From the NCBI RefSeq assembly GCF_003790525.1, contig NZ_CP033635.1: a DNA stretch of 64,000 nucleotides; one strand, 5' to 3'. The first letter of the stretch is position 1. Each line of letters opens with the position of its first letter. A program made the position numbers. Positions 6,001 through 9,000 of this stretch are shown piece after piece. This stretch comes from Escherichia coli (GTDB lineage Bacteria > Pseudomonadota > Gammaproteobacteria > Enterobacterales > Enterobacteriaceae).

Positions 6001-9000
6001 GGCGTTTTGCCGTTCGGCTGTTCTTGTGGTCAGATTAACAATCTGAAGAGTAAAGACGACAGTAATCTGTCTGTTATAGTGGCGATAAAAACACTGAATG
6101 TGCATCCTGTATGTGAAATCCGGTCATGTGGAGCAGTAAGCAATGACAGACATGCATGTTATATGTGAAGGGGGCCGGGAGACGACATAATCAGTATGGC
6201 TGTCATTCTGGTTGTAAAACGCGATCACTTTCCGGGGGTAAAAGATGATATGGAGGCTGACAAACGGTTTGCTTCGGATTGTCTTTTCTGGGGCCTGAAA
6301 TACGGGGGCAGAAAAATAATTCCAGAGTAAATCTGCTCTGTTTTTAGGACAGAAAACTCCATGCTGGCTGTAAAAGTGAGAAATCAACACCCAGTATGTA
6401 TGGAAGTCTGAAGATGTTGAGAATGTCGGTATGATACTATATACACATGTTTTTATTAAGTGTTATATACATATCTTTTTAAATAGATAATTCTACACAT
6501 ATTTTACTAAGTATTTTTACTAAGCATTTCAGTAAGTGTTATACACGTATTTTCTACTAAGTGTTTTACCAGACATACACGTGTTTTCATAAACAGCCCT
6601 ATAAGTGTTTTCATTAAGCATTGCTGTACACATTGCTTTGTCTGAAACTCATCCAGTTTAGTAAATCTTTACGTTAGCTAAAATCAGTTTAAAGCTGCTG
6701 TAAAACCTTTCTGTTTAAGCAATCAATCTGCTATTCGATTTTACTGATGTTGCGTTTAACCTTTTCTGAGATTTCGAGTTTCGACGTTAGCATGAGAAAA
6801 GTATCTTTACGCTAAATCAACCCGAACTTTCCTGAAGTAATCTGACGTTTTTTTCGATGTGCTTTCGACGATTCTGTTAAACGACTTTCTGGATGTTTTG
6901 ATAACAATCAGATTGAGGCATTAACGATTCCTGACGTTTTGCTTTTTCATGTAAGGTCATTGTTTTCGTCATGATGTGATTTTTCTTCTTGCATTGCGAA
7001 AGTGTGATGATTGGTTTTGGTTTTTTGATTCAGATGAGATTTACGTTATCGATGGTTAATCGTTTTTATGGTGCGTAGTGAAATGTAACATTTTCGGGAT
7101 GAGAAAATCGATTCTGATGGTGATGGGGATGATCGTGTTACGGCGTTATCTGTAAACAGGTTTTAAACGTGTCATTCGCATTCGTGATTGAGTAATGTGG
7201 TTAAGCTGTAGGTTTTGGTGTTGTTGTTGATTCACAGCGCCAGAAAGTGCTCTGATTGCGTTTCTGGTGTTTTGTTCGAATGTTCTGTGGATCCTTTTCC
7301 CTTCTGACTTTTCTCGTTGTCCATGTCGTTTTTAAATCCATTCGCTGTTCTTGAGTGTTTTTACCCTGCGTGTAGAATTATCTTTTCGTTCCGGGATGGT
7401 TTGTTCCGTTTCAATCACTCTTAATCAGAGAGTTGTAGCATTGCTCAATGCCGGATGCCGTAAAGTTTTACCGCAGTGATTAATGATGTGAAGTCAATCC
7501 AAATCAACGGAGATCTCTCATCATGAATCAACCAATACACAATGCTTACTGGTTATCCCGTTTTGACAGCCTTCTCAACAGTGCCCTGGCGCAACACCGT
7601 GCCGTTTCGTTAATCCGGGTGGATTTACGTTTTCCTGAGTATATGCCTGCCACCATTATGGATACCGATTTAGATTCAGCGGTGATTTCTCGTTTTTTCG
7701 AATCCCTGAAAGCCAAAATCCAGGCTTACCAGCGGAAAAAACGACGTGCCAACAAGCGTGTGCGTGCAACCACCCTGCATTATTTCTGGTGTCGGGAGTT
7801 TGGCAAGGAAAAAGGCAGGAAACATTATCACGTGATATTACTGCTCAACAAAGATACCTGGTGCTCGCCAGGGGATTTCACCGTTCCTTCTTCGCTGGCG
7901 ACACTGATCAAGCTGGCATGGTGTAGTGCTCTGCATCTTGAGCCCTGGCAGGGTAATGGACTGGTTCATTTTTCCAGGCGGACGCCTTTCCGTAAACCGA
8001 CATCATCTGATGCTCGCCCTTCTTCCGATGATACGCCTTTGTCGGGTGGATGTTCTGATACCAGGAAGGCTTCAGACAAAAAGCCGGGTGAAGCCGCTGT
8101 TCTCTGGATCAAGCGTGGTGATGTGGAAGCGCTGCAGAAAGCCCGGAACAGAGCCAGTTATCTCGTGAAATATGAGACGAAGCAGCATGACGGTTCCGGG
8201 CAACGTAATTATGGTTGCAGTCGTGGGCCGGGGCGTCTGCTGGATGGCAGGTGAGCCCTGTAAAACGACATCCGGTGCCTGAGCTTATGCTACAGGACGT
8301 TGGCTGACGCCCTTAGCTCGTTTTCTGAAAAAGTCGTCCTGAAGTCATGCAACGGTATTTTTCTCTGCTTTCGCTCCTGGAAACACTCCGTCGGTAAAAC
8401 CTTACTGTCCTGCTTAATGATGTGAACCGAAGTCAACGGAGAGCATTCATTCTGAACCTGCATCCGGTGTTCTGTCCCTTGTCGGTTACCTGATCTTCCC
8501 GTTCTGCCGCGGTTTTTCACTTATTCCATCAACCCCATACGCAAGCCATAACACGTCAGCGCATCCACGGGCAGGACGCGTTGTGGGCTGCGTATAACGG
8601 AACATATCTTATGAATGCTATCCCTTATTTCGACTATAGCCTTGCCCCCTTCTGGCCATCTTATCAGAACAAAATCATCGGCGTTCTCAACCGTGTGTTG
8701 CGCGAGCAGTCCTGCTCCCGAATACGGCGGATCCTGCTTCGTCTGCCGGGGGAACATGGCAACATCTTCAGCGACAGAAAAACCTGGTTCGGTATGGCCT
8801 TTATCGAAACCGTCAGTGCGCTGATGAATGCAACCCCCGGACGCGACCTCTGCTGGCTCCTGACACGTCATCCTGAAAAACCGGAATACCACGTGGTGCT
8901 GTGCGTCAGACAGGAATATTTCGACGGCCCTGAGCTGGACCGGTTGATTCTGGATGCCTGGAGCAACGTACTGGGCTTCGCGTCACCGGGTGAAGCAGCA

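What the first reader, a model, noticed from the sequence alone, without database searches (positions are those of the whole stretch)
6440..7522. Iteron-like repeat array and long ORF-free skewed leader upstream of tandem Gp2-like genes
A ~200-bp array of two interleaved degenerate motifs (TAAGTGTT and TACACRTRTTTT, including the perfect palindrome ACACGTGT) is followed by ~860 bp of strongly G+T-skewed sequence with no ORF, ending at the start of a YfjJ-type gene. Gp2-like proteins are related to inovirus replication initiators, so repeats next to such a gene could be a relic origin or regulator-binding array, or the region could encode a structured RNA or long 5' UTR. From memory, the IsrC sRNA lies in the comparable slot of CP4-44.
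Basis: partly seen in the sequence, partly recalled or inferred. Interest (0 to 1): 0.5.

Follow-up and report, generated by a model that had tools for sequence, protein, structure and literature searches.

The report
Expanded control region of island nickase gene
The repeats and the long gene-free stretch are real and most likely form the enlarged, undescribed control region of a replication-type DNA-nicking gene carried by a genomic island present in about a third of complete E. coli genomes; no structured RNA or IsrC relative was found, and a replication-origin role is not excluded.

Summary
Observation confirmed. Positions 6442-6640 hold 13 same-strand copies of two related short units. 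The next ~880 bp have no ORF above 46 aa and the strongest G+T excess in the 64-kb window.

Interpretation partly supported. No Rfam match, no excess RNA folding, and K-12 isrC lies in a different slot. The downstream gene (7523-8254) does encode an intact HUH Rep-like nickase.

It consists of a 13-mer "Box 1" (6316-6328), then a promoter block (6409-6445) that aligns by eye with the SELEX-assigned K-12 yagK promoter, then an ACACAT core. Elsewhere this module lies 130-430 bp from the start codon; here it lies about 1.1-1.2 kb away.

Best reading (0.42): the array is a multiplied protein-binding operator at the ancestral gp2 promoter, and the skewed stretch is a lineage-specific untranslated leader.

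Rivals: rolling-circle origin "bind" locus (0.2); functionless spacer (0.2).

No binding, transcription or nicking was tested. The G+T skew remains unexplained.

The parts
6316..6328 (+). Box 1, ATAATTCCAGAGT: a 13-mer conserved upstream of Gp2/YfjJ/YagK genes across lineages. It marks the left edge of homology shared by all E. coli alleles. Function unknown (regulator site or candidate nick site).
   Evidence: Best + strand match in whole loci falls upstream of Gp2 in seven lineages: L029 (0 mismatches, -358), L024 (0, -426), Providencia (1, -351), Brenneria (2, -274), K-12 yagK (2, -262), yfjJ (3, -129), L028 (3, -319). Shuffled 13-mers give 0.43 hits at <=2 mismatches per 40 kb. Alleles lacking the left element start homology at 6309.
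6409..6445 (+). Box 2, a promoter-like block (AGATGTTGAGAATGTCGGTATGATACTATATACA; TTGAGA 6417-6422, 17 nt, TATACA 6440-6445). It is nearly invariant in E. coli alleles and aligns by eye with the yagK promoter region.
   Evidence: Conservation 0.88-0.93. Side-by-side layout with (G)TTGGATWGGTAATATATA of other lineages, read by eye, no alignment score. In K-12 the matching block is the spacer and -10 of the RpoD genomic-SELEX promoter TTTAGA-16-TATAAT of yagK, with H-NS noted (PMC3946193). The hexamer assignment in this window is inference; the tool's promoter scan did not list it.
6442..6640 (+). Repeat array: 13 same-orientation units of two related kinds. TACACRT+T-run starts at 6442, 6467, 6494, 6542, 6576, 6627. 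TAAGYRT+T-run starts at 6457, 6508, 6521, 6533, 6558, 6602, 6615. Spacing is 9-27 bp, mostly 12-16.
   Evidence: Across 16 E. coli-type loci the array is 119-222 bp with 4-13 units, always in + orientation, between two invariant anchors. Distal units come and go; units at 6575-6640 are kept in all but L005, which lacks the last one.
6641..7233 (+). T-rich gene-free stretch (proposed untranslated leader, part 1). It includes a variable hexanucleotide repeat (GATGGT)n at about 7114-7135 and a highly conserved block at 7013-7072.
   Evidence: No excess RNA or ssDNA folding. In some alleles 7040-7370 is replaced by a 176-aa 'DNA-binding protein' gene on the - strand.
7234..7280 (+). Hairpin followed by UGUUUUGUU: a candidate attenuator or terminator on the + strand RNA.
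   Evidence: 14 pairs are kept in 9 alleles, with 1 broken cell; changes are one-sided and G-U compatible. Local fold z is -1.8 to -2.8. Not decisive: a C>T / A>G substitution bias would give the same pattern.
7351..7378 (+). Proximal promoter-like site TTGAGT-16-TAGAAT, 145 bp upstream of the gp2 ATG. It is weaker in other alleles (CAGGAT, TAGGTT).
7433..7530 (+). Nearly invariant gp2 5' UTR. A predicted hairpin (7477-7530) pairs the region around the Shine-Dalgarno (GGAG 7509-7512) and the AUG (7523) with upstream sequence.
   Evidence: Conservation 0.96-0.99, above the 88-97% identity of gp2 four-fold sites. Consensus structure in 10 alleles, with no covariation possible because the pairs are almost invariant.
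7523..8254 (+). gp2 (YfjJ/YagK family): a HUH Rep-like endonuclease, 243 aa.
9252..9488 (+). AlpA/Vis-type excisionase-regulator, 78 aa: an alternative candidate binder of the array.
   Evidence: TIGR01764 excisionase domain 4e-4, below the curated cutoff. PHROG 'excisionase and transcriptional regulator' 6e-10. An AlpA gene lies immediately beside gp2 in 5 of the 7 other lineages fetched, and elsewhere in the locus in the other two.
9689..10237 (+). Second, degenerate Gp2-like gene without HUH or Tyr motifs.

Best explanation
The finding is the enlarged 5' control region of gp2, a HUH Rep-like nickase gene. It sits at the centre of a CP4-type genomic island, between the leftward GTPase / anti-restriction / toxin-antitoxin module and the rightward gp2-alpA module.

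A control module shared by the whole gene family lies at 6316-6450. It consists of Box 1, then a sigma-70 promoter block (Box 2), then an ACACAT core. In this E. coli subfamily two changes separate the promoter from the gene:
- The ACACAT-containing part next to the promoter has been multiplied into a 4-13-unit, one-orientation array.
- About 870 nt of non-coding, T-rich sequence lie between the array and the gene.

Proposed mechanism, all steps inferred. An island-encoded DNA-binding protein occupies the array and controls rightward transcription starting at or just before it. That protein is either Gp2 itself, whose fold class binds tandem repeats, or the AlpA/Vis-type regulator. The transcript crosses an untranslated leader with a hairpin-U-tract at 7234-7280. 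gp2 translation is further held down by an invariant hairpin over its ribosome-binding site. Together these would keep a potentially harmful nickase tightly off.

Shown: the anatomy, the conservation, the family-wide motifs and the HUH nature of Gp2. Not shown: any binding, any transcript, or the cause of the G+T skew.
For: (1) Layout. The same divergent layout, [DUF932, anti-restriction, GTPase](-) / gap / [Gp2, AlpA](+), occurs in Providencia and Morganellaceae. Brenneria and L029 have a similar leftward module without a called GTPase. The gaps are 400-1110 bp.

(2) Box 1. Conserved upstream of Gp2 genes in seven independent lineages, with two perfect 13/13 matches. Chance expectation is about 0.01 per kb at <=2 mismatches.

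(3) Box 2. It aligns by eye with the K-12 yagK promoter block, where genomic SELEX with RpoD holoenzyme gave a binding peak in the yagK-yagL spacer and the authors assigned TTTAGA-16-TATAAT.

(4) ACACAT core. The array's core ACACAT/ATGTGT is enriched in the Gp2-upstream gaps of 7 non-E. coli lineages: 12 observed against 3.7 +/- 1.9, P = 0.0005. It ranks 2nd of 1618 hexamers.

(5) Array behaviour. Fixed in position and orientation, variable in unit number in 16 loci, as expected of a binding-site cluster.

(6) Leader properties. No coding signal and no global RNA structure. It is more diverged than gp2 four-fold sites, and other lineages do without it.

(7) Local elements. Conserved hairpin-U-tract and an invariant SD-sequestering UTR.

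(8) Gp2 fold. Closest to origin-binding nickase domains. That these domains bind tandem repeats rests on established knowledge, not on a test here.
Against: - No transcript, transcription start or protein binding was tested.
- The promoter hexamers in this window are weak (TATACA lacks the final T), and the tool's promoter scan did not list them.
- A separate promoter-like site 145 bp from the ATG could make the 870 nt a spacer rather than a leader.
- In the allele with a - strand 'DNA-binding protein' gene between array and gp2, a read-through leader is awkward.
- Clear arrays were seen only in E. coli, Brenneria and Providencia, not in Morganellaceae, L027-L029 or K-12.
- Unit spacing (12-16 bp) is not helical-phase.
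- The G+T skew is not explained. My idea that it protects the RNA from Rho failed: 40% of 78-nt windows of the + RNA still have C/G>1, which is ordinary for this window.
Confidence: 0.42

Rival explanations
1. Rolling-circle origin, active or relic. The array is the 'bind' locus of a double-strand origin for the HUH nickase Gp2. A nick site lies nearby (Box 1 is a candidate). The excised island replicates or is handed on as single-stranded DNA. The T-rich, C-poor + strand reflects cytosine deamination while single-stranded.
For: - Intact HUH and Tyr motifs and an NS1/Rep/RepB-like fold.
- Rolling-circle origins consist of a bind site and a nick site (PMC5714925). That RepB, parvovirus NS1/Rep and geminivirus Rep bind tandem direct repeats is established knowledge.
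- The array is directional and varies in copy number.
- Box 1 is conserved far beyond its flanks, as nick sites usually are.
Against: - No hairpin beyond chance in or beside the array as ssDNA; z is -1.7 to +1.0.
- The array lies about 880 bp from the gene.
- Four DnaA-box-like 9-mers each carry a mismatch, and three of them lie in units missing from most alleles.
- The polymorphism spectrum is nearly symmetric: 81 C/T against 69 A/G columns.
- Most other lineages have no clear array.
- No phage genome in the collection carries a close relative. The only hit is an unverified 4.5-kb contig that also has ORFs of IS66-like sizes.
Confidence: 0.2
2. Largely functionless spacer. AT-rich, H-NS-covered filler accumulated between the island's two modules. 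The repeats arose by replication slippage and unequal recombination. Only the 150 bp next to gp2 matter for its expression.
For: - The region is more diverged (70-93%) than gp2 four-fold sites (88-97%) and is mosaic, with recombination breakpoints at the array.
- It contains a hexanucleotide VNTR and many indels.
- Part of it is swapped for another cassette in some alleles.
- Other genera manage with 400-750 bp.
- A proximal promoter-like site exists.
- H-NS was noted at the yagK spacer in K-12.
Against: - The proximal array units are kept in nearly all alleles, and unit orientation is kept in all.
- The array core is shared with distant lineages.
- Blocks 6383-6442 and 7013-7072 are 88-97% conserved inside much more variable flanks.
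- The skew is maintained at 0.62-0.66 in all 11 leader-type alleles, which are 72-94% identical to the window.
Confidence: 0.2
3. A long structured non-coding RNA or riboswitch-like leader whose fold is the functional entity.
For: - Column-shuffle controls give modest excess consensus folding on the + strand in 7000-7522 (z -2.4 to -3.7), with slightly more compensated pairs than in the shuffles.
- A conserved hairpin at 7234-7275.
Against: - No Rfam family at gathering score or at E<5.
- Whole-region MFE z is +0.25 on the + strand and +1.31 on the - strand.
- Sliding windows show nothing in 6440-7160.
- Only 1 of 37 predicted pairs has a two-sided change.
- High divergence and length polymorphism.
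Confidence: 0.05
4. A relative of the sRNA IsrC, or a decayed protein-coding gene.
For: - Some RefSeq annotations-82-aa hypothetical proteins on the - strand at the equivalent of 7175-7418.
Against: - IsrC: no Rfam match. In K-12 isrC lies between yeeP and flu, which would correspond to the left of 3044 here. K-12 has no homologue of the gap.
- Pseudogene: tblastn of neighbouring and variant-cassette proteins finds nothing at E<0.1. The annotated small ORFs are broken here and by non-triplet indels in other alleles.
Confidence: 0.03

Closest known systems
Promoter region of K-12 yagK (CP4-6), a YfjJ/YagK-family gene
   Same: It shares Box 1 (CTAATTGCAGAGT, 2 mismatches), the AGATGTTG...GGTAT..TATA block and a following TGTGTAC/ACACAT-type core, in the same order. 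In K-12, RpoD genomic SELEX gave a peak in this spacer and the authors assigned the promoter TTTAGA-16-TATAAT, with H-NS binding noted (PMC3946193).
   Different: In K-12 the block lies about 180 bp from the ATG, with no clear array and no long skewed stretch. Here it is about 1.09 kb away, and the hexamers are shifted by a short insertion.
Double-strand origins of HUH Rep replicons, e.g. the pMV158 RepB bind (direct repeats) and nic loci; parvovirus NS1 / AAV Rep binding elements
   Same: A HUH nickase gene sits next to a directional array of short direct repeats, and the Gp2 model resembles these origin-binding domains (repeat binding from established knowledge).
   Different: No nick-site hairpin was found. 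The array is about 880 bp from the gene. The element is a chromosomal island. Replication or nicking was never tested here.
Operator arrays of excisionase-regulators (P2 Cox, 186 Apl, P4 Vis; from my own knowledge)
   Same: Multiple same-orientation short repeats lie at a promoter beside a gene for an AlpA/Vis-family protein.
   Different: Spacing is 12-16 bp, not one helical turn. The array is far from any attachment site. Box 1 is absent upstream of K-12 intA, AlpA's known target.
AlpA-dependent antitermination in Pseudomonas aeruginosa
   Same: A small AlpA-named regulator, a promoter-embedded site, and leader terminators 26-247 nt downstream of the start (PMC7969949). Here there is an AlpA-type gene, a promoter block and a leader hairpin-U-tract.
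   Different: That system has one binding element between -35 and -10, not a 13-unit array. Homology of the two proteins was not tested, and no evidence for antitermination exists here.
E. coli sRNA IsrC
   Same: Both lie in CP4-type islands.
   Different: Different slot, no sequence or model match, and no copy of this region in K-12.

Membership tests
Rfam IsrC or any Rfam family | Match to the family covariance model | tested here: not met
   Whole window at gathering score gives only Ysr276 and ALIL, elsewhere. For 5700-7700 at E<5, only two chance-level hits.
IsrC | Location between the GTPase gene (yeeP) and the next gene downstream of it | tested here: not met
   K-12 annotation gives yeeP, isrC, flu all on one strand. 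The gap studied here is upstream of, and divergent from, the GTPase gene, with two genes in between.
Rolling-circle double-strand origin of a HUH Rep | Adjacent Rep gene with intact HUH and catalytic Tyr motifs | tested here: met
Rolling-circle double-strand origin of a HUH Rep | Bind locus: repeats bound by the Rep | tested here: inconclusive
   A directional repeat array is present and conserved in place. Binding cannot be tested with these tools.
Rolling-circle double-strand origin of a HUH Rep | Nick site, usually a conserved sequence in or beside a hairpin | tested here: inconclusive
   No ssDNA hairpin beyond shuffles. A strongly conserved 13-mer (Box 1) exists 110 bp left of the array, but nothing ties it to nicking.
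Rolling-circle double-strand origin of a HUH Rep | Rep-dependent replication or nicking | not testable with these tools
   Needs nicking assays and copy-number measurement of the excised island.
Iteron-type theta origin | DnaA boxes and an AT-rich unwinding element beside iterons | tested here: inconclusive
   Four 9-mers with one mismatch each to TTATNCACA lie at 6439-6547, none perfect. Three lie in units absent from most alleles. The window-wide count is at chance: 66 against 61.
Structured non-coding RNA | Folding stability above shuffled controls | tested here: not met
   z is +0.25 and +1.31 for 6640-7522. Only local signals at 7166-7285 and 7406-7555.
Structured non-coding RNA | Compensatory base changes | tested here: inconclusive
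   1 of 37 pairs has a two-sided change. There is a slight excess over column shuffles. Only about 4 allele classes are available, and the G+T bias mimics G-U tolerance.
Sigma-70 promoter homologous to that of yagK | Sequence homology of the promoter block | tested here: inconclusive
   The sequences line up by eye in a side-by-side layout, but the scored local alignment of the yagK upstream region to this gap picked Box 1, not Box 2, at chance level (P 0.18). The K-12 promoter was assigned from RpoD genomic SELEX.
Sigma-70 promoter homologous to that of yagK | Transcription start in this element | not testable with these tools
   No expression data for this island. The consensus scan did not list it.
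Cox/Apl/Vis-type operator array | Several same-orientation repeats at a promoter next to the regulator's gene | tested here: met
Cox/Apl/Vis-type operator array | Repeat spacing of about one helical turn | tested here: not met
   TRF period 13 and spacings of 9-27 bp. No 10-11 bp periodicity.

The most novel reading that the evidence does not exclude
Box 1, the repeat array and Gp2 together form a working rolling-circle origin (nick site, bind locus, initiator). This would let a very common class of E. coli genomic islands replicate, or be exported as single-stranded DNA, after excision. The extreme G+T bias of the adjoining 0.9 kb would be the mutational scar of that single-stranded phase.
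Probability: 0.15. Interest if true: 0.75.

Novelty: new member of a known kind. Interest (0 to 1): 0.45.

Why it matters
YfjJ/YagK/'inovirus Gp2' genes are core genes of CP4-type islands that carry virulence, defence and toxin-antitoxin cargo. This particular region occurs in 1877 of 5426 complete E. coli genomes, with up to 8 copies per genome.

No functional study of the protein family or of its upstream region turned up in the paper library.

This work shows the protein to be an intact HUH nickase and defines a family-wide upstream module: Box 1, a promoter block and an ACACAT core, here expanded into an array. That gives concrete DNA substrates for binding, nicking and reporter assays. 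It makes directly testable whether these 'cryptic' islands replicate or regulate themselves through this gene.

If it proves to be only an operator plus leader, it is an ordinary though unannotated regulatory region.

Tried and rejected
- **Rfam.** Gathering score and E<5: nothing.
- **Whole-region and sliding RNA folds.** No global structure.
- **ssDNA hairpins in or near the array.** None beyond shuffles.
- **A/T-tract helical phasing (DNA curvature).** No peak above shuffles.
- **Pseudogene tests.** tblastn with the variant 'DNA-binding protein' and with neighbouring proteins from other genera: nothing.
- **Conserved ORFs across alleles.** Only composition-driven open frames.
- **Purifying selection on the leader.** It is more diverged than gp2 four-fold sites.
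- **GTGTTTT recurrence through the leader.** At the upper edge of what T-richness gives: 11-13 against a shuffle maximum of 12-13. Dropped.
- **DnaA boxes.** Imperfect, mostly in non-conserved units.
- **Rho-refractory leader idea.** Not supported; 40% of 78-nt windows of the + RNA have C/G>1, the 37th percentile of the window.
- **Asymmetric C/T versus A/G polymorphism as a sign of ssDNA deamination.** 81 against 69, not telling.
- **17-nt inverted repeat 6482-6498 / 7370-7386 (16 of 17) as an inversion switch.** The left arm lies in units missing from most alleles, and the right arm is changed in alleles that have the left arm. Taken as chance.
- **Genome-contig scan with the protein.** Gave only 2 loci.
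- **Cluster-member names.** No locus tags useful for a literature search.
- **YfjR literature.** No binding motif.
- **MOB_V oriT resemblance of 'AGTGTTATAC'.** From memory only; papers were located but not followed up.
- **Phage collection.** No DNA match. The one protein match is an unverified 4.5-kb contig that also has ORFs of IS66-like sizes.
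Full report
**1. What is at the coordinates**

The window has a 1.7-kb stretch without annotated genes (5846-7522). On its left is a leftward 279-aa hypothetical gene (5006-5845). On its right is a rightward 243-aa gene (7523-8254).

- TACACRTRTTT has four exact matches in 64 kb on both strands, all within 6442-6586.
- TAAGYRTTT has four of its six matches at 6508-6610.
- Looser patterns give 6 + 7 units in 6436-6640, all on the + strand, out of 29 and 30 matches in the whole window.
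- Tandem Repeats Finder sees a 13-bp period.

The following ~880 bp have no ORF above 46 aa. G+T is 0.609 overall and 0.67 at 6926-7425. That is the extreme of the window (mean 0.503, sd 0.039).

**2. Where it belongs**

The region is found in 1877 of 5426 complete E. coli genomes, with a median of 2 and up to 8 copies. It occurs almost only on chromosomes, on 4 plasmids and in no phage record.

The fixed neighbourhood runs as follows: toxin-antitoxin, RadC, anti-restriction, DUF932 and GTPase genes (all leftward), one or two hypothetical genes, the gap, Gp2 (rightward), then variable cargo.

The same divergent layout, with an AlpA gene right after Gp2 and defence genes beyond, recurs in Providencia and Morganellaceae. 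Brenneria and the metagenomic contig L029 have a similar leftward module without a called GTPase. Their Gp2 proteins share only 35-49% identity with this one, and their gaps are 400-1110 bp.

K-12 has no copy of the gap. Its yfjJ and yagK genes have 150-270-bp upstream regions.

**3. The gene next door**

The protein matches Pfam YagK_YfjJ_C (4e-36) and REP_ORF2-G2P (3e-8), and phage replication-initiation PHROGs.

An alignment of 19 family members keeps RVDLR, KHYHVLLLLNKD (HUH) and RxxYLAKxxTK (Tyr).

An AlphaFold model (pLDDT 80) is closest to HUH origin-binding nickase domains:

The second 'Gp2-like' gene (9689-10237) has lost the motifs. The 78-aa protein at 9252-9488 is AlpA/excisionase-type.

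**4. Behaviour of the array and the skewed stretch among alleles**

In 16 E. coli-type loci the array lies between two invariant anchors. It always has the same orientation, but is 119-222 bp long with 4-13 units. The units nearest the gene (6575-6640) are kept in all but one locus (L005 lacks the last unit). The palindrome ACACGTGT is not conserved.

The stretch between array and ATG stays 828-917 bp long in 12 loci. It keeps G+T at 0.62-0.66 in all 11 leader-type alleles, which are 72-94% identical to the window.

Against strong constraint:
- It is more diverged (70-93%) than the four-fold sites of gp2 (88-97%) and is mosaic, with breakpoints at the array.
- Most of its indels are not multiples of three, and it has a (GATGGT)n length polymorphism.
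- In one allele class, 7040-7370 is replaced by a 176-aa 'DNA-binding protein' gene on the other strand.

Blocks 6383-6442, 7013-7072 and 7433-7522 stand out as nearly invariant.

**5. RNA and ssDNA structure**

There is no Rfam match. Minimum-free-energy z-scores for 6640-7522 are +0.25 (+ strand) and +1.31 (- strand). Sliding windows show nothing between 6440 and 7160. The array and its flanks do not fold as ssDNA beyond shuffles.

Two local features remain.
- A hairpin plus U-tract at 7234-7280 is kept in nine alleles through G-U-compatible changes. This is not decisive, because the local substitution bias would give the same pattern.
- An invariant hairpin at 7477-7530 pairs the region around the Shine-Dalgarno and the start codon of gp2.

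**6. The key comparative result**

Local alignment of nine independent Gp2-upstream regions against the gap hit the same spot six times. That spot is ATAATTCCAGAGT at 6316-6328, here called Box 1.

Scanning whole loci, the best + strand match to Box 1 lies upstream of Gp2 in seven lineages:

| Lineage | Mismatches | Position relative to ATG |
|---|---|---|
| L029 | 0 | -358 |
| L024 | 0 | -426 |
| Providencia | 1 | -351 |
| Brenneria | 2 | -274 |
| K-12 yagK | 2 | -262 |
| K-12 yfjJ | 3 | -129 |
| L028 | 3 | -319 |

Shuffled 13-mers give 0.43 hits at <=2 mismatches per 40 kb.

A second shared block, (G)TTGGATWGGTAATATATA (Box 2), lies 55-90 nt downstream of Box 1. I aligned it to the window's AGATGTTGAGAATGTCGGTATGATACTATATACA (6409-6445) by eye in a side-by-side layout; no scored alignment supports this pairing. 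In K-12 the matching block is the spacer and -10 of the promoter TTTAGA-16-TATAAT, which the authors assigned to yagK from an RpoD-holoenzyme genomic-SELEX peak, with H-NS noted (PMC3946193).

Box 2 is usually followed by ACACAT or its complement. That hexamer is the core of the array's TACACRT unit.
- In seven non-E. coli gaps it occurs 12 times against 3.7 +/- 1.9 expected (P = 0.0005).
- Its density is 0.9-6.7 per kb in the six gaps that contain it, against 0.1-0.7 per kb in the rest of those loci; L028 has none.
- It ranks second of 1618 hexamers in an unbiased scan.

E. coli alleles that lack the left part of the gap begin their homology at 6309, right at Box 1.

Hence the family-wide gp2 control module sits at 6316-6450. 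Box 1 lies 130-430 bp from the ATG in the other lineages but 1207 bp away here, and the promoter block lies about 1.09 kb away. The array begins where the ACACAT core lies.

**7. Best explanation and its limits**

I read the array as a multiplied protein-binding operator at or just after the ancestral gp2 promoter. I read the 870 nt as a lineage-specific untranslated leader carrying an attenuator-like hairpin. A translational lock follows at the ribosome-binding site.

The binder could be Gp2 itself, since its fold class binds tandem repeats (established knowledge). It could equally be the AlpA/Vis-type regulator, whose relatives bind repeat arrays at promoters (my own knowledge). I cannot decide between them.

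Every functional step is inferred. Points against the model:
- The promoter hexamers here are weak.
- A proximal promoter-like site exists at 7351-7378.
- The cassette variant fits the leader model poorly.
- The skew is unexplained. The Rho-protection idea failed, and the polymorphism spectrum is nearly symmetric.

**8. Rivals**

- **Rolling-circle origin** (bind locus plus nick site). It fits the HUH gene, the directional array and the unusually conserved Box 1. A report of copy-number gain of an integrase and a Gp2-family gene in Nissle also fits. It lacks a hairpin, the array sits far from the gene, and it has no experimental support.
- **Functionless spacer.** It fits the divergence, the VNTR and the cassette swap. 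It does not fit the conserved blocks, the fixed unit orientation or the cross-genus motif.
- **Structured RNA, IsrC and pseudogene readings.** Each failed its tests.

**9. Novelty and verdict**

I found no paper that studies this protein family's function or its upstream region. Related islands in Pseudomonas list a Gp2-like gene among likely core genes and are moved by a jumbo phage (bioRxiv 10.1101/2024.08.29.610337).

The thing itself belongs to a known kind: a promoter-proximal binding-site array with a leader, or possibly an origin bind locus. It is unannotated and very widespread. It sits next to an uncharacterised nickase, and it gives clear substrates for experiments. Interest 0.45.

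Noticed in passing
window 5990-6350 (+): A GC-richer element left of the finding is much better conserved than its flanks: >=95% identity in 531 of 772 genomes, against 208 of 1220 for the stretch 6640-7040. It contains a 44-aa ORF (6196-6330, annotated as a hypothetical protein in some genomes) and ends in a terminator-like hairpin at 6323-6340 that overlaps Box 1. Frameshifting indels in some alleles, and 1- and 11-nt deletions in divergent alleles, argue against coding. It could be a small RNA.
   Followed up: partly
window 6316-6328: Box 1 (ATAATTCCAGAGT) is identical in two distant metagenomic lineages and near-identical in Providencia, Brenneria and K-12 yagK, always upstream of the Gp2-family gene. 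Its role is unknown.
   Followed up: partly
window 7114-7135: Hexanucleotide repeat (GATGGT)n of variable length among alleles: about 2 copies here, 3 in L003, 8 in L013.
   Followed up: no
L004 4613-5143, L005 4699-5229, L025 2801-3331 (equivalent to window ~7040-7370): An alternative cassette. A 176-aa protein annotated 'DNA-binding protein', transcribed towards the array, replaces part of the skewed stretch. It is a frameshifted remnant in L014. No Pfam, NCBIfam or PHROG match.
   Followed up: partly
window 6482-6498 and 7370-7386: A 17-nt inverted repeat (16 of 17 complementary) brackets the skewed stretch. The right arm overlaps the -10 of the proximal promoter-like site. The arms are not jointly conserved in other alleles, so probably chance.
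   Followed up: yes
window 10255-10557 (-): A ProQ/FinO-family RNA-chaperone gene fragment lies just beyond the second Gp2-like gene. It is annotated as frameshifted in the closest E. coli genome. It could be relevant if the gp2 leader is controlled at the RNA level.
   Followed up: no
window 55969-56163 (-) and 27512-27628 (-): Rfam matches above gathering score elsewhere in the window: Ysr276 (182.9 bits) and the ALIL pseudoknot (116.2 bits).
   Followed up: no
L031 (OR844780.1, 'Escherichia phage ECO111 5-P'): The only 'phage' record with a Gp2 relative (42% identity) is an unverified 4.5-kb contig that also has ORFs of 145, 116 and 537 aa. That size pattern looks like IS66 genes, though I did not test their identity, so the record may be an island fragment rather than a phage. 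Its Gp2 upstream region has a Box 1-like TTATCACAGAGT.
   Followed up: partly
alleles L002, L005, L008 against the window, around 6440-6575: Identity to the window changes abruptly across the array: for example L008 is 99% identical on the left and 85% on the right. This suggests the repeats act as recombination breakpoints between island alleles.
   Followed up: no
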